64,000 nucleotides of DNA from Escherichia phage vB_EcoM_LNA1: the sequence record MZ311863.1. One strand, 5' to 3'. The notes below the pieces were generated by a model. The model was not told the origin of the DNA, searched no databases, and saw only the letters and a list, made by a program, of their open reading frames with translations. The translations under genes and the position numbers were made by a program. Shown one piece after another: positions 27,918 to 41,955 of this stretch; the stretch's first letter is position 1, and each line of letters starts with the position of its first letter.

Positions 27918-28188
27918 AGAGAAGTGGGAGATTTTACCATTAGTCAGTGAAGGCGGTAATGGTTGTGAAATGTACATGATACGTGGTCATGTTCCAGAAC
28001 CAATTGCACTTGAGATGGTAAACAACTTTACAGATGGCTCTTACAAAGACTTAGGGGAGCCAAATATAAAGCAGCAATGGGTAAAGCCTGTACCAGACAG
28101 CACAGGTAACTGTAGTGTACTTTATCACGTTGTAGACCCTGCAAAATGCAAATCTGCAATGGCAGTAACAAACGTAACTTTTGATTGA
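27910..28188 (+). CDS. hypothetical protein
   Basis: 92-aa ORF. Confidence 0.3.
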   Translation: MAKEKWEILPLVSEGGNGCEMYMIRGHVPEPIALEMVNNFTDGSYKDLGEPNIKQQWVKPVPDSTGNCSVLYHVVDPAKCKSAMAVTNVTFD

Positions 28189-29081
28189 GAGAGAAAACTA
28201 TGAAAACTGTTATTGAAGCCGTCGTCACCGCTCAAGAGAAATTCTTCCACACAGAAAAATTTAATATCATTCAATTCCCATCTGGAGAAATTGGTGGAAA
28301 CTTCTCTGAAGATTTTGTTAAGTTTACTGAGCGTAATGCTGGTAAGATTGATAATGTTATAATTACTGTACAGGGATATGACAAAGATACACTGTTTGCA
28401 TTAGCTTTGGCTAAGGATGCCGTTGACAGTCTTGTTCCCCAGAAATCAGCGATGAAAACCGTTGTTTTCGGGTTCTTACCAAATGCTCGATATGACCGCC
28501 ACATGTTCAAAGGTGATGCAGCAGCACTGAAAGTCTTTGCCAACCTAGTTAATGCAATGGGTTTTGATGCAGTATGTGCTCTTGACCCTCACAGTAATGT
28601 TGCAGAAAACTTATTTAAGTGCTTTCAAAGCATGAAGCAAAAAGATGTGGCAGTACACTTTGCAAGTGACCCACGCATTGATTTCTTGGTAGCCCCAGAT
28701 GCAGGTGCAGCTAAGAAGACTGAAGATACCGCTAAAGAGGTGGATAAACCGTATATCACAATGTCTAAGGTGCGCAATCTTAAGACTGGAGAAATCACTG
28801 GTATGCGAATCCTTGACGATGTTGATTTGACCGATAAAACTGTCATGATTCTTGATGATATCTGTGATGGTGGTCGAACCTTCGTAGAGGCAGCTAAACA
28901 CCTACGTGAAGCAGGTGCAAAACGTGTGGAACTCTATGTAACTCATGGTATTTTCTCTAAAGGTGTTGAAAACTTGCTTGACAACGGTATTGACCATATC
29001 TACACTACAAACACTTTAGGTGAAGCTAAAGACCGTGGCTTAACACATTACGCCCAAGTTACTGTAGCAACCATTGATTGA
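28185..29081 (+). CDS. prs: ribose-phosphate pyrophosphokinase (PRPP synthetase)
   Basis: 298 aa; PRPP-binding loop MILDDICDGGRT (consensus DDxxDTGGT). Confidence 0.7.
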   Translation: MREKTMKTVIEAVVTAQEKFFHTEKFNIIQFPSGEIGGNFSEDFVKFTERNAGKIDNVIITVQGYDKDTLFALALAKDAVDSLVPQKSAMKTVVFGFLPNARYDRHMFKGDAAALKVFANLVNAMGFDAVCALDPHSNVAENLFKCFQSMKQKDVAVHFASDPRIDFLVAPDAGAAKKTEDTAKEVDKPYITMSKVRNLKTGEITGMRILDDVDLTDKTVMILDDICDGGRTFVEAAKHLREAGAKRVELYVTHGIFSKGVENLLDNGIDHIYTTNTLGEAKDRGLTHYAQVTVATID

Positions 29082-29090
29082 AACTTTATA

Positions 29091-29111
29091 GGGGCTTGAA
29101 AGCCCCATTTT
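29091..29111 (+). terminator. putative intrinsic terminator
   Basis: ggggcttgaaagcccc hairpin plus atttt. Confidence 0.4.
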
Positions 29112-29126
29112 GAGAGAGATTAAAAG

Positions 29127-30908
29127 ATGACTAAATCGCTTTACGCAGTACCAGCAGGTTTAAACGCAGATGCTTACAAATCTGGTCATGTTTACCAGTA
29201 CCCTAGTGCAACAGAATACTTGATGTTCAACCTGACACCACGTAGTGACAAATGGTTTAACAGCCCCTTAGCAATTGATGGTGTAGTAGCTTTTGGTATT
29301 CAACGTTTCGTTAAAGATTACCTGATAGACCACTGGAACGCCACTTTCTTTGAACGTGATAAAAAAGAAGCAGTTGACGAAATCTTAGAAGTCATGAATG
29401 GTGTTCTGGGTAAAGATGCTATCGGTCGAGAGCATTGGGAAGCACTTCACGATTTAGGCTATCTACCAGTTGAAGTATACGCTGTAGAAGAAGGTACAGT
29501 TGTTCCTATGCGTGTTCCAATGATTGTCTTCCAGAACACTGTTTCAGGTTTCCATTGGGTAGCAGGTTATCTGGAAGATGCTTTCTCTGCTGAGATTTGG
29601 AAGACTTGCACCATTGCAACTATTGCATTGCACTACAAACGTATCTGTAAGAAGTGGGCTGACCTTACTTGCGACAATGACTTACATTTACCTTATCAGT
29701 GCCATGACTTTGCTATGCGTGGTATGTCCGGCTTTACCGATGACGCATTTAATGCTGTAGGTCACTTAACCAGCTTTAAAGGAACTGATAGCTTCCCTGC
29801 TGTATACACGGCTAAACGCATCTATGGACAGTCTTACCCAATTTCTGATATTGGTAGTTCTGTACCAGCCACTGAACACTCTGTAATGTGTGCAAACATT
29901 GCTTGGGAAGGTGGTAATGAATTGATTGAAGAGGAAAGACGCTTTAAAGGTGAGTTGCAAACCTTCCGTCGTTTCTTAACAGAAACTTACCCAACTGGTA
30001 TTGCAAGTATTGTTTCAGATACTTATAACTTCTGGAGAACTGTGTCAGAAATCTTACCAGCACTTCGTAAAGAAATTATGGAACGTGATGGTAAGCTGGT
30101 AATTCGCCCTGACTCTGGAGACCCTGTACATATTGTCACAGGCTATAAAGCAATCCACTTAGAGTGTGCTAAGAAGACTTATTATGAGCACCTAAGCAAG
30201 CTGGAAGCTAGTGACACAATGTTGAATGCTGTTCTGAACATGAAGCTTGAAAACATCAACTATGGTATTGCTGGATGGCTACTGTCAGAAGGCTACGAAA
30301 TGGTTGTTGACAGAGAAGACTTTGAAGTTGCTGATACAGTGATGTTGAAAAATGCTTATATGGTTGGCTCTGCAAACGTTGTAACACGTCCTGTAGCAGA
30401 GATTGATGGAGCTATTAAGACCCTGTACAACATCTTCGGAGGGACTATTAACTCTAAAGGGTTTAAGGTACTGGATGAGCACATCGGCCTTATCTATGGT
30501 GACTCTATCACGCTGGAACGTGCAAACGAAATCCTGAAGCGTCTGTATGAAATGGGTTTTGCAAGCTCTAACGTAGTGTTTGGTGTAGGCTCTTACACTT
30601 ACCAGTACATGACTCGTGACACCTTTGCATTTGCTGTCAAAGCAACTCTTGCAAGCATTGGTGGTAAAGAGATTATGCTTGCAAAAGACCCTAAAACAGA
30701 TAGTGGTGTTAAGAAATCTGCCTTTGGTGGTGTAGCACCTATGTGGGATGGTGATAAGCTGAAAGCTGTAGATGGCTATGGATTCCAGAGTTTTGCAGAT
30801 GTACTTGACCACCAAGCTTGTGCTTTACGTTTAGTCTTTAGCGACTCTGAGCAGTTCGGTTATACAACTCTTGGAGATATTCGAAATAATATTGACAAGC
30901 AGCTTTAA
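29127..30908 (+). CDS. nadV: nicotinamide phosphoribosyltransferase (NadV-like)
   Basis: 593 aa; directly follows prs; GHLTSFKGTDS and general NAPRTase-family architecture (motif-level call from memory). Confidence 0.6.
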   Translation: MTKSLYAVPAGLNADAYKSGHVYQYPSATEYLMFNLTPRSDKWFNSPLAIDGVVAFGIQRFVKDYLIDHWNATFFERDKKEAVDEILEVMNGVLGKDAIGREHWEALHDLGYLPVEVYAVEEGTVVPMRVPMIVFQNTVSGFHWVAGYLEDAFSAEIWKTCTIATIALHYKRICKKWADLTCDNDLHLPYQCHDFAMRGMSGFTDDAFNAVGHLTSFKGTDSFPAVYTAKRIYGQSYPISDIGSSVPATEHSVMCANIAWEGGNELIEEERRFKGELQTFRRFLTETYPTGIASIVSDTYNFWRTVSEILPALRKEIMERDGKLVIRPDSGDPVHIVTGYKAIHLECAKKTYYEHLSKLEASDTMLNAVLNMKLENINYGIAGWLLSEGYEMVVDREDFEVADTVMLKNAYMVGSANVVTRPVAEIDGAIKTLYNIFGGTINSKGFKVLDEHIGLIYGDSITLERANEILKRLYEMGFASSNVVFGVGSYTYQYMTRDTFAFAVKATLASIGGKEIMLAKDPKTDSGVKKSAFGGVAPMWDGDKLKAVDGYGFQSFADVLDHQACALRLVFSDSEQFGYTTLGDIRNNIDKQL

Positions 30909-35139: not shown

Positions 35140-35688
35140 ATGAAGAATTTGATTCTAGGTTTGTGCTTAATGTTTACAGCACACTTATCTTATGCAGTTG
35201 ACTGCCCAGAGCTATCAATTAGCCAAAAAGTAAACATGTTAAAAGCTTACCAGTATGGTGAGAATAATATGGGTAAAGGTTGGGGTATCACTCTAGCTGC
35301 TATAGCCTTACAAGAGTCAGAGTTAGGTCTGAAGGTAGAGAATAAAAAGACCCATGACTATGGTATTTTCCAGAATCACTTGAAGACTGTTGTAAAGCGT
35401 AACAAAATCAGCCCTAATGTGGCTAAAAAGAAACTCTTAAAAGACTTTGACTATGCTGCAAAAGAAACACACAAAGAGCTTGAGTTTTGGACGAAGGTGC
35501 ATGGTCACCCAAAGTCAAAGAAGGCTTTACAAAAAGTTTTAGCGTCATATAATGCTGGGTATTCGTACAAAATCCCTAAAGCTAAGAAATACTCTCAAGA
35601 TGTCTATAACAATATGAAAGTTATCGCTCAATGTGAATTTGCAACAAACATTTCTAAGGTAAATCATGAAAAAATTAAGAAAGTTTGA
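35140..35688 (+). CDS. secreted lytic transglycosylase-like (SLT/lysozyme-like) protein
   Basis: 182 aa; signal peptide MKNLILGLCLMFTAHLSYA; QESELG...YGIFQN resembles SLT catalytic Glu region. Confidence 0.45.
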   Translation: MKNLILGLCLMFTAHLSYAVDCPELSISQKVNMLKAYQYGENNMGKGWGITLAAIALQESELGLKVENKKTHDYGIFQNHLKTVVKRNKISPNVAKKKLLKDFDYAAKETHKELEFWTKVHGHPKSKKALQKVLASYNAGYSYKIPKAKKYSQDVYNNMKVIAQCEFATNISKVNHEKIKKV

Positions 35689-36361
35689 CGAAGTGCTGTG
35701 TCATGCTTATGACTTACATCCCCATGAATTAGGTATTGATACTGACATATGGACTCCAGAGCAGTGTAGAGACTTTGAAGATACTGCAAGGGAGGTTGTA
35801 TGCTCACTTGAAGAGTTCCACACACCGGAGCCAATTGTGAATGCTGTCGATAAAGAGACTGGGAAAGCCATAGGTGTAAGACGTGATAGCCTAGTCATAG
35901 TCAATAAAGACCTTGTAGAGAAAGGAAATCTTATCCTAGCAGATATTGATGGTGTTCTAACATATTTTAATCACGAAGCTTACTCAGCAGAGTTGACTGA
36001 TGGGTCATTTTCACAGTACACCAACTTACTTGATGCTGTAAGAGCAAAACCAACATATGTTTTCCACATCATTGATGCAATTGCAAATCATGCAGCAGTT
36101 GGGTTCTTGACAGCAAGAGGTGAGACTCAGAGAATACCTACTGAGATGTTTTTAAGACACAATATAGAACATGATTACTTGCTTTTTATGCGTGGCTTTG
36201 GAACAAATTCTCTAAGTGCAGAAAGTTTAAAGGTTAGGATGATTCAGTCTTGCATTCTTCCTTATTTTAATATAGTATGCTTTATAGAAGATACAGAGAA
36301 GAATGTGCAGAAGGTGAACAGAATCCTTCCACACATCAAAACCATGTTAGTTAAACATTGA
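35666..36361 (+). CDS. HAD-superfamily phosphatase (possible 5'-deoxynucleotidase)
   Basis: 231 aa; LADIDGVLT matches HAD motif I DxDGT. Confidence 0.45.
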   Translation: MKKLRKFDEVLCHAYDLHPHELGIDTDIWTPEQCRDFEDTAREVVCSLEEFHTPEPIVNAVDKETGKAIGVRRDSLVIVNKDLVEKGNLILADIDGVLTYFNHEAYSAELTDGSFSQYTNLLDAVRAKPTYVFHIIDAIANHAAVGFLTARGETQRIPTEMFLRHNIEHDYLLFMRGFGTNSLSAESLKVRMIQSCILPYFNIVCFIEDTEKNVQKVNRILPHIKTMLVKH

Positions 36362-36836: not shown

Positions 36837-36846
36837 GGTTAAGATA

Positions 36847-36870
36847 CAGGCTCCTTCGGGAGCCTTTTTA
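36847..36870 (+). terminator. intrinsic terminator
   Basis: caggctccTTCGggagcct hairpin plus ttttt. Confidence 0.6.
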
Positions 36871-36886
36871 AATTCAAGGAGTATTA

Positions 36887-37771
36887 ATGAAACCAATGTT
36901 TAAGTATCTTGGTGGTAAAACAAGAATACTGAAAGAATATGAGCGTTTAGGTGTCTTTCCAGACAAATGTGAAAACTTCTATGACCTGTTTTCAGGTGGT
37001 GGTTCAGTAGCTATTTGGGCTTATAACAGATACCCAGAGGCAAAAGTGTTTATTAATGAGATAAATAAACATATTATAGGTCTTTACACAACTTTCAGAG
37101 ATGACTATGAAAACTTCATGGAAGAATTTGAGTACCTGTCAAAAAGGTACTTAGCCTTACCTATGCAGGAAGAGTATGCCGTGAAAGGCCAGCGTCATAA
37201 CCGTCTACGCTATAAAATGTATTACAGTGTAAGAGAGGAACTTCTTTTGCTTGGTGAAGAAGGAGCATATGACTACAGGTACTATGCCAGACAGTTTTTC
37301 CTTCAAAAACTAAGTTTTGGTGGTGTATGGCAGACTACTAAAGAGATGAAAGGTCACTATGCAACACCTTGCGGGTATTTGCTGGAAGAAGAGATTTTCT
37401 TCACAAAAACTAAGAAGTCACTGTCTGAGTTCTACAGTTTTATCACTGATGAGAGGGTGATACTTAGCAGTGAACCTTATAACAGGGTTGACATAAAACA
37501 TGGAGAAGGCACAGTTATCTACTGTGACCCCCCGTATATCAACACCAACCAGAAATATGGTGCAAAGTTTGACATTGAGATGTCTGTAAAATTATGCGAA
37601 GATATGATTTCTTGGGGGGAGTTAGGCTCTAAAGTTTTGATGTCAAACTCTCAGTGGGATGGATGGGCAAACCTAATTCCTGAAAATTTTAACTTGACAG
37701 AGGTTAGCCATTCATACACAATACATGCACAGAGAAGCAAAGATATTAACGAAGTAATTATTCACAACTAA
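36887..37771 (+). CDS. dam: DNA adenine methyltransferase (Dam-like, N6-A)
   Basis: 294 aa; N-terminal FKYLGGK and catalytic DPPY in VIYCDPPYINT. Confidence 0.75.
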   Translation: MKPMFKYLGGKTRILKEYERLGVFPDKCENFYDLFSGGGSVAIWAYNRYPEAKVFINEINKHIIGLYTTFRDDYENFMEEFEYLSKRYLALPMQEEYAVKGQRHNRLRYKMYYSVREELLLLGEEGAYDYRYYARQFFLQKLSFGGVWQTTKEMKGHYATPCGYLLEEEIFFTKTKKSLSEFYSFITDERVILSSEPYNRVDIKHGEGTVIYCDPPYINTNQKYGAKFDIEMSVKLCEDMISWGELGSKVLMSNSQWDGWANLIPENFNLTEVSHSYTIHAQRSKDINEVIIHN

Positions 37772-37782
37772 GGTATCAAGTT

Positions 37783-38595
37783 ATGGCAAACAGCATCAAT
37801 GTAGCACTGAATGGCAAGGTTGTTAAAATTCACACTAAGATTATCAGTGTCGAGGATTTTCTTAATGAAAAACGTTACAAAGAAAACCCTCGTCAACGAA
37901 ATACACTTAAGCGTCTGAAAAGCAAACACCTTAATGGTGACGTATCACCAGACCAAACAGTAGTCCATGTGGCTAAGTTCGGGAGTTCACTGTTCATCAT
38001 TGATGGGCACTCACGTAGAGAGGCATGGAAAGTTGGTAACCTGACACGACCAGAAAACTTGATTGCAGTTATATACCATGTGAACTCTATATTGGATGTC
38101 ACAGATTTGTATACACATTTTGACTCTGAGTTAGCAAGAGAGAAGCCTTCAGAAGTTTATTACGGAAATATGAAGATGATTTCTTTCAACCCAGAGTCAG
38201 AACTGATGAAAGCATCTTGGGCAACTGCTATTAAATATGTTGCTGCATACTACGGTGTACAACAGGTCTCTAACACTGAAACAGTTAAATATCTTAATGA
38301 CTTTAAAAATGAGCTGGAACAAATTGATTCTCTTGAAGTACAGCTTAAAGGTGTAGTAAACGCAAAACGGAAATATTCTTCTGGGATTCGTGCAGCAATG
38401 TTAATTACACTACGCCTATATGGTGATGCTGCATTTTCCTTTTGGGAAGACTATAATGATTACTGTGAAGGTATGTCTAACAAATATGTTACAGAGGTAT
38501 ACCAACTGGCATTACAAGCTGGTCGCGGAGCACAGGCTGATAAGTTGTTGATGAATCAAGCGATTTCACTTGTCAACTATTACAGTCAAGAATAA
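37783..38595 (+). CDS. hypothetical protein, possible ParB/DGQHR-like nuclease domain
   Basis: 270 aa; FIIDGHSRREAW resembles DGQHR/ParB N-terminal motif; weak. Confidence 0.3.
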   Translation: MANSINVALNGKVVKIHTKIISVEDFLNEKRYKENPRQRNTLKRLKSKHLNGDVSPDQTVVHVAKFGSSLFIIDGHSRREAWKVGNLTRPENLIAVIYHVNSILDVTDLYTHFDSELAREKPSEVYYGNMKMISFNPESELMKASWATAIKYVAAYYGVQQVSNTETVKYLNDFKNELEQIDSLEVQLKGVVNAKRKYSSGIRAAMLITLRLYGDAAFSFWEDYNDYCEGMSNKYVTEVYQLALQAGRGAQADKLLMNQAISLVNYYSQE

Positions 38596-38599
38596 TACA

Positions 38600-38622
38600 C
38601 AGGCTCCTTCGGGAGCCTTTTT
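38600..38622 (+). terminator. intrinsic terminator
   Basis: caggctccTTCGggagcct hairpin plus ttttt; near-identical copy of the 36847 terminator. Confidence 0.6.
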
Positions 38623-38641
38623 CATTTCAGGAGATTGTTAA

Positions 38642-39961: not shown

Positions 39962-40162
39962 ATGGCTGACTTCTGCAAAGACTGTTCTATCGAAATGTTC
40001 GGACGTGATACAGGTGACTTAAAAGGTCTTATCACTGAAGATGACTTTAAAGCTGGTTATGCAATGCCAGTAATCTGTGAAGGTTGTGGGTGCATATGGG
40101 TAGACCACGAAGGACAGCGTGTAAAACCTTCAGAAGATAAAGAATCTTGGGAGAGATGTTAA
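39962..40162 (+). CDS. hypothetical Cys-rich protein
   Basis: 66 aa; CKDC ... CEGCGC. Confidence 0.3.
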   Translation: MADFCKDCSIEMFGRDTGDLKGLITEDDFKAGYAMPVICEGCGCIWVDHEGQRVKPSEDKESWERC

Positions 40163-40948
40163 ATGGGTATTGTAAAAATCATCAAAGGGGATATCTTTGA
40201 CGCCTTTGATAAAGGTAAATTTGATATCATCGGTCATGGTTGCAACTGTATGAATTTCATGGGTGCAGGTATTGCAGCAACTATTTCTAAGCGTTATCCA
40301 AAAGTGTATGATACTGACACAGAAGTTTACCTGTTTGCAGGTGGCATCCGTCACAAACCCTGTGAAAATTTACTAGGTAATTTCTCTGTAGCACGTTTAA
40401 AACAAGGTCGTATAGCTAACCTTTACACCCAACTTCATACTGGTAAAGATGCCCGATACAGTGCTTTAGAGTCATCTTTGAAACAGCTTAACAGATACTG
40501 TGAAGTTAACCAGTTGAAGAAAGTTGGCCTGCCTATGATTGGTGCAGGTATCGGTGGACTTGACCCTCAAGCTGTCACAGTTATCATCAATCAGGTGATG
40601 AAGAGCGTAGATGTTTACCTGTATGTCTACGAGGCAGAGATGTACAACAAGTTACACTCAGGTTGGAAGAACTACTGTGAACCAGAATACTTTGCGGGTG
40701 TAGTAGTGTTCACAGACAACACAGTTACCCTCTTCAGACGAAGAAAAGGTAAGATACATCAAAGTAACCCTCCGGTTGAAAAGATGTCTCTAAGTAACGC
40801 TCTAGTTACCCACCTGTCGAAGAGCAATCACAGGATTGCAGTAACATTTGGCAGCGATGCAGATGCTTACATCTATGCAAGAACTGATGAGGCTATCGAG
40901 ACGGTTTTCTCTTCACCGGAAGTTACCTTCTTAGACGCAAAGAACTAA
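40163..40948 (+). CDS. macro-domain (ADP-ribose-binding/processing) protein
   Basis: 261 aa; IIGHGCNCMNFMGAGIAATI resembles macro-domain N-x(5)-GGG-[VI]-x(2)-AI region. Confidence 0.5.
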   Translation: MGIVKIIKGDIFDAFDKGKFDIIGHGCNCMNFMGAGIAATISKRYPKVYDTDTEVYLFAGGIRHKPCENLLGNFSVARLKQGRIANLYTQLHTGKDARYSALESSLKQLNRYCEVNQLKKVGLPMIGAGIGGLDPQAVTVIINQVMKSVDVYLYVYEAEMYNKLHSGWKNYCEPEYFAGVVVFTDNTVTLFRRRKGKIHQSNPPVEKMSLSNALVTHLSKSNHRIAVTFGSDADAYIYARTDEAIETVFSSPEVTFLDAKN

Positions 40949-41020
40949 GAAAACTCTGTAGAATATTCACAATAGACTAAGCCTTTCTTATCTGGTAAAT
41001 TTTTCAGGTAAGGAGGGCTT

Positions 41021-41218
41021 TTTCATTTCAGGATTGTGCAGGTAGAGTTCTGGACAGAAATCTGTAGAGAGAATTTTGAACTCCAAAGAGAAAATTCATT
41101 TTCAAATTGTGCAGGTAATCTCCAAAGAGCTTTTTCATTTTCAAAACGTGCAGAGAAAAATCAGGTCGGGCAAGAAAAATCATTTTAGAATTGTGCAGGT
41201 AGGTGGGTGCAGGTGGGG
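41021..41218. repeat. iteron-like direct repeats
   Basis: four copies of about 25 bp CATTTTCA-N3-5-TTGTGCAGGTA (41021-41046, 41091-41119, 41130-41155, 41176-41203) plus gtgggtgcaggtgggg, followed by AT-rich stretch. Confidence 0.55.
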
Positions 41219-41377
41219 ATGTCGCCATTTCTCACAAGGCTACCACATCCGAAAAGAAAAGTCAACAGAAAAATTTGTAGCGGATTGAAAAATAATTCTT
41301 GATTTGTGTTCTGTTTTGTGGTATTCGCGCGCACCCGTTTCATTGCATTTTTGCCAAAAATATTTTTAAAATTTTTC

Positions 41378-41406
41378 TTGACTATTCGAACGGGGTTATC
41401 TAGTAT
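41378..41406 (+). promoter_or_regulatory. sigma70-like promoter
   Basis: TTGACT-17 nt-TAGTAT upstream of first small-gene cassette. Confidence 0.45.
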
Positions 41407-41411
41407 TTGCA

Positions 41412-41469
41412 TCAACGGGGAGGAAATGACTTCCCCACTAAATAAACCCTTAAACTAGGAGATTCTAAA
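41412..41469 (+). promoter_or_regulatory. leader cassette type A (copy 1)
   Basis: TCAACGGGGAGG(A/G)AATGAC(C)TTCCCCACTAAATAAA(g/c)cCTTAAACTAGGAGATTC(a/t)AAA-ATG; hairpin directly upstream of SD. Confidence 0.5.
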
Positions 41470-41658
41470 ATGGCATCAAGAAAAATTAAAGTTGGCGATG
41501 AGGTTAACATCAAGCACGAATATTCTTACAAAATGCTAACTATCCGCTCTTATAAGGTTTATCAGGTGGAAGCTATCCACGAAGATAACACTTTTTCCTT
41601 AAAAGGTTATAGCGAACGTTTCCCTGCTGAACTCTTTGAGAAATGGAGCGCGAAATAA
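41470..41658 (+). CDS. small hypothetical protein (cassette gene)
   Basis: 62 aa; preceded by type A leader. Confidence 0.4.
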   Translation: MASRKIKVGDEVNIKHEYSYKMLTIRSYKVYQVEAIHEDNTFSLKGYSERFPAELFEKWSAK

Positions 41659-41864
41659 TGCTATACGGTCGTGAATTGATGGTTACAACTAACGTTAACA
41701 CAAATGTAAAACGTTTTTACATGCGAATTTGTGGCGTATGGTCTAGAATATCAGAAGCTGACTACTGCAACTATGTAGAAACGGCAATCAACTCTGATTG
41801 TTATCTTACAAGGAATACTAAAAAATTTACGAGACAGACAGCGGTTTACTATTACGATATCTGA
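41658..41864 (+). CDS. small hypothetical protein
   Basis: start placed at internal ATG after ggag RBS. Confidence 0.3.
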   Translation: MLYGRELMVTTNVNTNVKRFYMRICGVWSRISEADYCNYVETAINSDCYLTRNTKKFTRQTAVYYYDI

Positions 41865-41867
41865 TAA

Positions 41868-41955
41868 AGTAATTTACAAGGGGCTTAAAAGTTGATATCT
41901 TAAGCCCCAGATAAAGAGTTTTACCACATCAACCCTTAAACTAGGAGATTCAAAA
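41868..41955 (+). promoter_or_regulatory. leader cassette type B (copy 1, divergent)
   Basis: ggggcttaaaagttgatatcttaagcccc hairpin then AGATAAAG...CTTAAACTAGGAGATTCAAAAATG. Confidence 0.45.

What the first reader, a model, noticed from the sequence alone, without database searches (positions are those of the whole stretch)
40163..40948. Macro-domain protein in the early region
The N-terminal segment IIGHGCNCMNFMGAGIAATI resembles the macro-domain ADP-ribose-binding loop. Macro domains reverse ADP-ribosylation or bind ADP-ribose derivatives; in a phage that also carries NAD salvage genes this could be an anti-defence factor (against ADP-ribosylating toxins such as DarT-like, or cyclic ADPR signalling). 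The about 110-aa C-terminal extension is unassigned.
Basis: inference. Interest (0 to 1): 0.5.

Follow-up and report, generated by a model that had tools for sequence, protein, structure and literature searches.

The report
Phage macrodomain with orphan C-terminal domain
This Felix O1-type phage gene really does encode an ADP-ribose-removing macrodomain, related to the phage T4 protein that defeats the bacterial DarTG2 DNA-ADP-ribosylating defence, but here it is fused to a fast-evolving 100-residue domain that resembles nothing known.

Summary
The ORF 40163-40948 (+, 261 aa) is real, and the quoted motif lies at residues 22-41. The window is a Felixounavirus (Felix O1-like) genome.

**Macrodomain (residues 1-157).** This is a confident call: Pfam Macro scores above its cut-off, TARG1 and DarG are the best solved structures, and the PADLOC DarG model matches at E 6e-15. 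The domain is 35% identical (E 6e-24) to T4 Tk.4/AdfM, which a 2025 preprint showed to be T4's anti-DarTG2 factor.

**Active site.** The catalytic Lys of TARG1/DarG is an invariant Gln here. The same holds in T4 AdfM and in SCO6735, a proven thymidine-ADP-ribose DNA hydrolase. The conserved Asn and His are present.

**C-terminal domain (residues 158-261).** It is beta-rich and has no homologue outside this phage clade among 1.84 billion representative proteins. It has no significant structural neighbour and no likeness to the DarT-binding domain of DarG. It is under purifying but laxer selection than the macrodomain.

**Allele replacement.** In 13 sequenced relatives, the gene body is replaced by a 40%-identical allele.

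**Verdict.** This is most likely an AdfM-type DNA de-ADP-ribosylase with an unexplained accessory domain. Interest is moderate, and the function is untested.

The parts
40163..40948 (+). Complete CDS of a 261-aa two-domain protein (macrodomain plus orphan C-terminal domain), including the stop codon
   Evidence: ORF list and sequence. phrog_335 matches full length at E 1.6e-114. 199 of 200 matching phage records hold at least 80% of it at 80-99% nt identity.
40150..40155 (+). Shine-Dalgarno-like GGAGAG, 7-9 nt before the ATG. The stop codon of the upstream 66-aa ORF (40160-40162) abuts the start codon.
   Evidence: Read directly from the sequence.
40163..40633 (+). Macrodomain, residues 1-157, of the TARG1/DarG/Poa1p-like (ALC1-like) class
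   Evidence: Pfam Macro above its cut-off. PDB sequence and profile hits to TARG1, DarG and Poa1p. Foldseek TM 0.75-0.82 to TARG1 and DarG. PADLOC DarG E 5.6e-15 and NCBIfam antitoxin_DarG E 8.4e-15, over the macro part only. 35% identity to T4 Tk.4/AdfM, E 6e-24.
40235..40276 (+). Substrate-binding loop 1, residues 25-38 (HGCNCMNFMGAGIA). H25, N28, G34, G36 and A38 are invariant in the family.
   Evidence: Invariant columns of A1. N28 aligns with DarG N22 and PhiKZ AdfM N23, and N28 is invariant in A4. Mutating that Asn lowers activity in PhiKZ AdfM (PMC13309987) and in SCO6735 N27S (PMC9411070).
40418..40432 (+). NLYTQ motif, residues 86-90. Invariant Q90 occupies the position of the catalytic Lys of TARG1 (K84) and DarG (K80).
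   Evidence: Alignments. T4 Tk.4 has the same NLYTQ. SCO6735 has Gln85 at this position and Q85A abolishes its activity (PMC9411070).
40532..40564 (+). Phosphate-binding loop 2, residues 124-134 (PMIGAGIGGLD). P124, G127 and G129-D134 are invariant in the two-domain family.
   Evidence: It aligns with DarG PPLGVGNGGLD.
40634..40945 (+). C-terminal domain, residues 158-261: a linker helix, then six predicted beta-strands and one helix. An orphan domain of unknown function.
40979..41020 (+). Terminator-like hairpin (17 pairs) followed by a T run, 31 nt after the stop codon. It suggests the gene ends a transcription unit.
   Evidence: Consensus scan. This is a pattern match only.
39962..40162 (+). 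Upstream 66-aa Cys-rich ORF (CxxC...CxxC) that abuts the macro gene. The pairing is syntenic in Felixounavirus, in Mooglevirus and next to the divergent allele.
   Evidence: phrog_2210, unknown function. It is not conserved next to the distant Pectobacterium-phage or metagenomic homologues, so partnership is unproven.

Best explanation
The gene encodes an early-acting counter-defence enzyme of the AdfM type. Its N-terminal macrodomain binds the ADP-ribose that the host toxin DarT2 attaches to thymidines in single-stranded phage DNA. It hydrolyses the ribose-base bond, which restores replicable DNA. Catalysis would follow the Gln-type route described for Streptomyces SCO6735. In that route Q90, positioned by N28, holds the distal ribose while an activated water does the chemistry. 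This differs from the Lys-based route of DarG and TARG1. The C-terminal 104 residues form a separate, lineage-specific beta-rich domain. It most likely tunes specificity by protein or nucleic-acid recognition, for example by binding the toxin or by targeting the enzyme to its substrate. Shown here: the ORF, the macro fold, the conserved active-site residues, homology to T4 AdfM and to DarG macrodomains, and that the C-terminal domain is a selected orphan domain. Inferred: the substrate, the anti-DarT2 role, and any role of the C-terminal domain.
For: Macro fold: Pfam 30.1 bits against a cut-off of 22; PDB profile E 2e-10; AlphaFold2 pLDDT 78.9 and pTM 0.79; best Foldseek hits are TARG1 and the DarG macrodomains of T. 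aquaticus and M. tuberculosis, E 1e-9 to 6e-9, TM 0.75-0.82. DarG-likeness: PADLOC DarG E 5.6e-15 and NCBIfam antitoxin_DarG E 8.4e-15, both stronger than T4 Tk.4 itself scores. Homology to a tested factor: 35% identity and E 6e-24 over residues 3-157 to T4 Tk.4; a tk.4 knockout sensitises T4 to DarTG2. A second AdfM, PhiKZ gp104, removes DarT2-made ADP-ribose from DNA in vitro (PMC13309987). Active site: H25, N28, G34, G36, T89, Q90, G127, G129 and G131 are invariant across the family. Gln at the Lys position is compatible with thymidine-ADPr hydrolysis, because SCO6735 has Gln85 there and needs it (PMC9411070). Strong purifying selection on the macro part, dN/dS 0.02-0.16. Whole-allele replacement in a 92%-identical backbone is the pattern expected of a gene in an arms race.
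Against: No experiment exists on any Felix O1-type protein (searches found none). Identity to T4 AdfM is only 35%, and the T4 evidence is genetic and from a preprint. The catalytic Lys of DarG and of PhiKZ AdfM is absent. Macrodomains of this class also process small ADP-ribose derivatives and protein- or RNA-linked ADP-ribose, and sequence alone does not separate these substrates (PMC9503650). The extra domain is absent from both characterised AdfM proteins. It shows no likeness to the DarT-binding domain of DarG and is not markedly acidic or basic. Its proposed role is therefore a guess.
Confidence: 0.55

Rival explanations
1. It removes ADP-ribose from RNA or protein targets of other host ADP-ribosyltransferase defences or toxins, for example mRNA-modifying CmdT-type toxins. 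DNA modified by DarT2 would not be its substrate.
For: TARG1, the best structural and sequence match, acts on protein- and nucleic-acid-linked ADP-ribose. SCO6735 also acts on a protein substrate. The substrate range of phage macrodomains is poorly known (PMC9503650).
Against: The closest characterised phage homologue was the single significant hit in the DarTG2 screen. The domain matches DarG-specific models better than any other curated model in PADLOC or NCBIfam.
Confidence: 0.17
2. It processes soluble ADP-ribose derivatives. One version is a Poa1p-like ADP-ribose-1''-phosphate phosphatase, which is the source of the database label 'phosphatase'. Another is a degrader of ADP-ribose-derived immune signals such as Thoeris cyclic ADPR isomers, possibly feeding ADP-ribose back into phage NAD metabolism.
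For: The HxCNC...GxG loop matches yeast Poa1p, with H25 and N28 equivalent to Poa1p H23 and N26 by motif spacing. Poa1p is a sequence and Foldseek hit. Aravind and colleagues argue that phage macrodomains mainly target soluble derivatives (PMC9503650). A metagenomic homologue, P0020, is fused to a cREC domain that is predicted to process cyclic-phosphate ADPr. NAMPT and a PRPP-synthetase-like gene are in the same genome, and a polynucleotide kinase lies 3.8 kb upstream.
Against: The Poa1p sequence match covers only the first 60 residues. The NAD genes are 9-12 kb away in other transcription units. No 2'-phosphotransferase or cyclic phosphodiesterase that would generate the substrate was seen near the gene. 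The T4 homologue has a demonstrated DarTG2 phenotype.
Confidence: 0.15
3. It is a non-catalytic ADP-ribose binding module (a reader or sponge). The C-terminal domain would be the effector part.
For: The Lys (and, for TARG1, the Asp) that catalyse hydrolysis in DarG and TARG1 are missing. Some GenBank records call the orthologue a 'high-affinity ADP-ribose binding module'.
Against: The residues needed by the Gln-type hydrolase SCO6735 (His, Asn, Gln, Gly-rich loop) are all present and invariant. T4 AdfM has the same Gln and protects against DarTG2.
Confidence: 0.06

Closest known systems
T4 Tk.4 = AdfM (anti-DarT factor macrodomain; NP_049723, 155 aa)
   Same: It is homologous over the entire macrodomain: 35% identity and E 6e-24. 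It has the same HGCNC, NLYTQ and IGAGIG motifs, including Gln at the DarG-Lys position. Both are orphan phage genes with no adjacent toxin.
   Different: T4 AdfM is a single domain. The Felix O1-type protein carries an additional 104-residue domain. The two genomic neighbourhoods are unrelated. The function is tested genetically only for T4.
DarG antitoxin of DarTG2 (T. aquaticus and M. tuberculosis; PDB 5M31, 5M3I, 7YK3)
   Same: The macrodomain is among the best structural matches and matches DarG-specific models. The overall architecture is also an N-terminal macrodomain followed by a second domain. The loop 2 motif GxGxGGLD is shared.
Streptomyces coelicolor SCO6735 (PDB 5E3B)
   Same: It belongs to the same ALC1-like class of macrodomain. 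It has Gln at the Lys position plus the nearby His and Asn. It hydrolyses thymidine-linked ADP-ribose on DNA and neutralises DarT (PMC9411070).
   Different: Direct sequence similarity is only weak, E 0.095. It is a bacterial single-domain protein, not a phage gene.
PhiKZ gp104 AdfM
   Same: It is a phage-encoded orphan DarG-like macrodomain with in vitro DNA de-ADP-ribosylase activity, and it shares the conserved active-site Asn (PMC13309987).
   Different: It keeps the DarG-type Lys (FPTKDNW), is a single domain, is imported into the phage nucleus, and is 23% identical to the window protein.
Human TARG1/OARD1 and yeast Poa1p
   Same: TARG1 is the best solved-structure match by sequence and by fold. 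Poa1p shares the HxCNC...GGG loop.
   Different: The TARG1 dyad K84/D125 aligns with Q90/G131. Both are cellular enzymes acting on protein-linked ADP-ribose or on ADP-ribose-1''-phosphate.

Membership tests
Macrodomain superfamily (Pfam PF01661) | Profile score above the curated gathering threshold | tested here: met
   30.1 bits against a cut-off of 22, E 5.1e-7, profile positions 2-117 of 118.
Macrodomain superfamily (Pfam PF01661) | Three-layer alpha/beta/alpha macro fold | tested here: met
   AlphaFold2 model with pLDDT 78.9. Foldseek probability 1.00 and target-normalised TM 0.75-0.82 to TARG1 and DarG, with 229 PDB chains at E<=0.001.
Macrodomain superfamily (Pfam PF01661) | Gly-rich loop 1 (GxG) and phosphate-binding loop 2 lining the ADP-ribose cleft | tested here: met
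   MGAGIA (residues 33-38) and IGAGIGGLD (residues 126-134) are invariant or nearly so in the family and align with the loops of TARG1 and DarG.
TARG1/DarG Lys-type hydrolases (ALC1-like class) | Catalytic lysine (TARG1 K84, DarG K80) | tested here: not met
   An invariant Gln (Q90) occupies that column in three independent alignments.
TARG1/DarG Lys-type hydrolases (ALC1-like class) | TARG1 Asp125 partner of the dyad | tested here: not met
   It aligns with G131. DarG also lacks this Asp (PMC9411070).
Gln-type ALC1-like hydrolases (SCO6735 type) | Gln at the Lys position, plus the Asn that positions it and a nearby His | tested here: met
   Q90, N28 and H25 are invariant. Equivalence to SCO6735 Q85, N27 and H24 is by transitivity through K84/K80 and DarG N22. 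SCO6735 itself was not aligned residue by residue.
Gln-type ALC1-like hydrolases (SCO6735 type) | Hydrolysis of thymidine-linked ADP-ribose on ssDNA | not testable with these tools
   This needs an enzyme assay.
AdfM (phage anti-DarT factor, macrodomain) | Homology to a characterised AdfM | tested here: met
   35% identity and E 6e-24 to T4 Tk.4 over residues 3-157. 23% identity to PhiKZ gp104 in a multiple alignment.
AdfM (phage anti-DarT factor, macrodomain) | Phage-encoded orphan with no cognate toxin gene next to it | tested here: met
   The neighbours are small ORFs of 62-126 aa in PHROGs of unknown function. The two that were scanned against Pfam (the 66-aa and 126-aa ORFs) had no hit.
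AdfM (phage anti-DarT factor, macrodomain) | Protection of the phage against DarTG2 | not testable with these tools
   No published test on any Ounavirinae phage was found.
DarG antitoxin (NCBIfam NF048014, PADLOC PDLC02990) | Full-length match above the curated cut-off | tested here: not met
   54.9 bits against a cut-off of 250. Only profile positions 2-153 of 338 are matched. PADLOC matches positions 5-147 of 329.
DarG antitoxin (NCBIfam NF048014, PADLOC PDLC02990) | C-terminal DarT-binding domain | tested here: not met
DarG antitoxin (NCBIfam NF048014, PADLOC PDLC02990) | Operon with darT | tested here: not met
   No ORF of DarT size lies beside the gene, and no DarT-like family hit was found among the neighbouring ORFs that were scanned.
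Poa1p-like ADP-ribose-1''-phosphate phosphatase | His of the HxCNC loop (Poa1p H23) and overall fold | tested here: inconclusive
   H25 is present. The sequence match to Poa1p covers only residues 2-61 (E 9e-6), while Foldseek covers the whole domain (E 1.6e-8). Residue equivalence rests on motif spacing and on my recollection of the Poa1p sequence. Activity is not testable here.

The most novel reading that the evidence does not exclude
The orphan C-terminal domain is a new toxin- or substrate-recognition module. On this reading, Ounavirinae phages independently assembled a two-module 'DarG analogue': an enzymatic eraser plus a binding domain of unrelated fold. The two 40%-identical alleles circulating in one genus would then track different DarT (or other ADP-ribosyltransferase) variants in Salmonella and E. 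coli.
Probability: 0.2. Interest if true: 0.6.

Novelty: new variant of a known kind. Interest (0 to 1): 0.38.

Why it matters
DarTG systems are common in enterobacteria. Felix O1-type phages are widely used for Salmonella typing, biocontrol and therapy, so knowing that they carry a probable anti-DarTG2 enzyme helps predict host range. The Gln-for-Lys active site is shared with T4 AdfM. This suggests that a large clade of phage macrodomains, with tblastn hits (E<=1e-5) in about 2,800 phage records, uses the less-studied SCO6735-type mechanism. The fast-evolving, clade-restricted C-terminal domain and the whole-allele replacement give a concrete, testable handle on how specificity evolves in an enzymatic counter-defence. 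None of this overturns current understanding.

Tried and rejected

**C-terminal domain related to T4 gp61.2, or to the T4 neighbours of tk.4 (Tk.3, Vs).** Rejected. hhalign probabilities are 0.3%, 0.1% and 0.1%. That gp61.2 is AdfA is from my memory of LeRoux et al. 2022.

**Any Pfam family for the C-terminal domain.** Only scattered single-member hits with E>0.02.

**Structural neighbours of the C-terminal domain.**
- BFVD returned only the SUSP2 orthologue.
- The afdb50 library was not available.

**Exhaustive profile search of 1.84 billion representatives with the C-terminal profile.** It found only the domain's own family, plus P0031. P0031 is a 2,374-aa repeat-rich protein whose 79.8 bits are spread over 10 repeat stretches, so I treat it as spurious.

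**The upstream 66-aa Cys-rich ORF as an obligate partner.** It is syntenic within Ounavirinae but absent next to the Pectobacterium-phage and metagenomic homologues.

**Structured RNA around the gene.** Nothing meaningful in Rfam.

**Literature on Felix O1-type macrodomains or their DarTG sensitivity.** None found.

**Charge-based mimicry or DNA binding by the C-terminal domain.** Net charge ranges from -4 to +3 across the family, which is not informative.

Full report
**Observation.** It runs from the ATG at 40163 to the TAA ending at 40948 on the + strand and encodes 261 aa. A GGAG lies at 40150-40153. The stop codon of a 66-aa upstream ORF abuts the start. The quoted peptide IIGHGCNCMNFMGAGIAATI is residues 22-41. 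A strong terminator-like hairpin (17 pairs plus a T run) follows at 40979-41020.

**Source and context.** The window is a Felix O1-like myophage of genus Felixounavirus, subfamily Ounavirinae.
- The gene matches 200 phage records at 80-99% nucleotide identity, and 199 of them cover at least 80% of it.
- Those records label it 'phosphatase', 'hypothetical protein' or 'macro domain'. The Felix O1 orthologue is NP_944801.
- The gene lies downstream of rIIA and rIIB, a polynucleotide kinase, the spanins and four small ORFs of unknown function.
They are 9-12 kb upstream in other transcription units, so the link is no more than co-residence.

**The macrodomain.**
- Pfam Macro scores 30.1 bits against a gathering cut-off of 22.
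- The single sequence hits human TARG1 (E 1.4e-6), the DarG macrodomains, Poa1p and coronavirus Mac1 in the PDB. A 12-sequence family profile improves TARG1 to 2e-10 and M. tuberculosis DarG to 1.3e-8.
- An AlphaFold2 model (pLDDT 78.9, pTM 0.79) gives TARG1 and the DarG macrodomains of T. aquaticus and M. tuberculosis as its best Foldseek hits (E 1e-9 to 6e-9, TM 0.75-0.82), followed by Poa1p.
- Among defence-oriented libraries, the only match is DarG: PADLOC E 5.6e-15 and NCBIfam antitoxin_DarG E 8.4e-15. In both, only the macro half of the model is covered, and the NCBIfam score (54.9 bits) is far below the 250-bit cut-off.

**Active site.** Three alignments place the invariant Q90 of the NLYTQ motif in the column of the catalytic lysine of TARG1 (K84) and DarG (K80). 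TARG1 D125 aligns with G131. The protein is therefore not a Lys-type TARG1/DarG enzyme.

The same Gln occurs in T4 Tk.4 and in every Tk.4-like phage sequence I aligned. It also occurs in Streptomyces SCO6735. That protein is an ALC1-like macrodomain that hydrolyses thymidine-linked ADP-ribose on DNA and neutralises DarT. In SCO6735, Q85A is inactive and N27S is nearly inactive (PMC9411070).

The window protein has the matching invariant residues H25, N28 and Q90, plus both Gly-rich loops. N28 is the same column as PhiKZ AdfM N23, whose mutation lowers activity (PMC13309987). All of this favours an active hydrolase using the Gln-type route.

**Closest characterised relative.** Residues 3-157 are 35% identical (E 6e-24) to T4 Tk.4. 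A 2025 preprint found tk.4 as the single significant hit when a T4 transposon library was passed through a DarTG2 host. It showed that a clean knockout becomes DarTG2-sensitive, and it renamed the gene adfM (10.1101/2025.11.20.689424). Independently, PhiKZ gp104, also named AdfM, removes DarT2-made ADP-ribose from DNA in vitro and rescues DarT2 toxicity (PMC13309987). Related macrodomains occur in about 2,800 phage records. I found no paper on the Felix O1-type protein.

**The C-terminal domain.** Residues 158-261 are present in about 257 phage records: the Ounavirinae genera plus Pectobacterium phages Wc4-1 and Arno162.
- Modelled alone, the domain gives pLDDT 78 and pTM 0.70, with a helix, six strands and a final helix.
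- A profile search of 1.84 billion representative proteins returned only its own family and one repeat protein that I regard as spurious.
- It is unrelated to the DarT-binding domain of DarG (7YK3_B, hhalign 0.2%), to T4 gp61.2 and to the T4 neighbours of tk.4.
- Its net charge is near zero and variable.
- The architecture 'macrodomain plus second domain' therefore parallels DarG2, but the second domain is not homologous to DarG's.

**Evolution.** Between genera, the macro part keeps 76-81% identity while the C-terminal part keeps 45-52%. Nei-Gojobori dN/dS across six orthologues is 0.02-0.16 for the macro part and 0.10-0.55 for the C-terminal part. Both are selected coding sequence, and the second is under constraint that is typically 2-5 times laxer.

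A second allele (P0009 type) also exists. It is 259 aa, 40% identical overall, 50% in the macro part and 24% in the C-terminal part. It sits on a contig that is 92% identical in DNA to the window from rIIA up to window position 40304, which is residue 47 of the gene. There is then no nucleotide similarity until window position 41135. Thirteen sequenced Felixounavirus-size phages carry this allele. Allele replacement inside a conserved backbone is typical of genes under conflict, but this is an inference.

**Mechanism and rivals.**
- **AdfM-type DNA de-ADP-ribosylase that counters DarT2, confidence about 0.55.** The fold, the active-site residues and the homology are shown. The substrate and the phenotype are inferred.
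- **Erasure of RNA- or protein-linked ADP-ribose made by other host transferases, about 0.17.**
- **Processing of soluble derivatives, about 0.15.** Poa1p-like phosphatase activity explains the database label 'phosphatase'. A metagenomic homologue fused to a cREC domain and the arguments of PMC9503650 keep this reading alive.
- **Pure binding, about 0.06.**
- The role of the C-terminal domain is open. A toxin-binding or substrate-targeting function is the most interesting possibility, and nothing here tests it.

**Verdict.** The macrodomain itself is a new, untested member of the AdfM/DarG-like kind. The fusion to a clade-restricted orphan domain and the two-allele polymorphism make it a variant worth an experiment. 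A specialist would not be greatly surprised.

**Limits.**
- The structure models rest on shallow alignments of 11-12 sequences.
- I could not inspect the model coordinates or the inter-domain error.
- The SCO6735 and Poa1p residue equivalences are by transitivity and motif spacing.
- The timing of expression was not examined.

Noticed in passing
window 36837-38640: A two-gene accessory cassette. It holds a Dam-like D12 N6-adenine DNA methyltransferase (36887-37771, PF02086, E 3e-23) and a 270-aa ORF (37783-38595, phrog_2615, with an IIDGHSRREAW motif and no Pfam, NCBIfam or PADLOC hit). Identical hairpins AGGCTCCTTCGGGAGCCT flank it at 36848-36865 and 38601-38618. The full cassette is present in only 13 of 213 related phage records. 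It is absent from VSe11 and from contig L011.
   Followed up: partly
window 40305-41134 versus L011 6143-6933: Most of the macro gene, from residue 48 onward, together with the downstream spacer, is replaced by an unrelated-in-DNA allele that is 40% identical in protein. The surrounding backbone is otherwise 92% identical. 13 sequenced phages carry that allele, including BPS17L1, Si3, finno and phiWec172.
   Followed up: yes
phage records LR699048.1 (VpaE1_ev035), KM657822.1 (VpaE1) and LR597663.1 (VpaE1_ev78): VpaE1_ev035 carries the divergent type B allele (95.7% to P0009). Its namesake VpaE1 (41.9% identity to P0009) and VpaE1_ev78 (95.9% nt identity to the window) carry the window-type allele. 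This suggests the locus can be exchanged by recombination between co-cultured phages.
   Followed up: no
window 28185-30908: The PRPP-synthetase-like gene and the NAMPT gene are directly adjacent here. In Salmonella virus VSe11 an HNH endonuclease gene (vse11_128) sits between them.
   Followed up: no
window 35666-36361: A 231-aa polynucleotide kinase (phrog_3970, E 1.7e-127) lies between rIIB and the spanins. This hints at an RNA or DNA end-repair function in the same gene block as the macrodomain.
   Followed up: no
window 40949-41955: The spacer between the macro gene and the next conserved 126-aa ORF is 1,007 bp here against 522 bp in VSe11. The extra sequence holds two small ORFs: 41470-41658 (phrog_15633) and 41643-41864 (phrog_5293). 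Their function is unknown.
   Followed up: no
L012 1250-2269 (metagenomic contig, protein P0020): A homologous Gln-type macrodomain (36% identity) is fused to a cREC_REC domain (PF20274) instead of the Felix O1-type C-terminal domain. This clade of macrodomains therefore recruits different C-terminal partners.
   Followed up: partly
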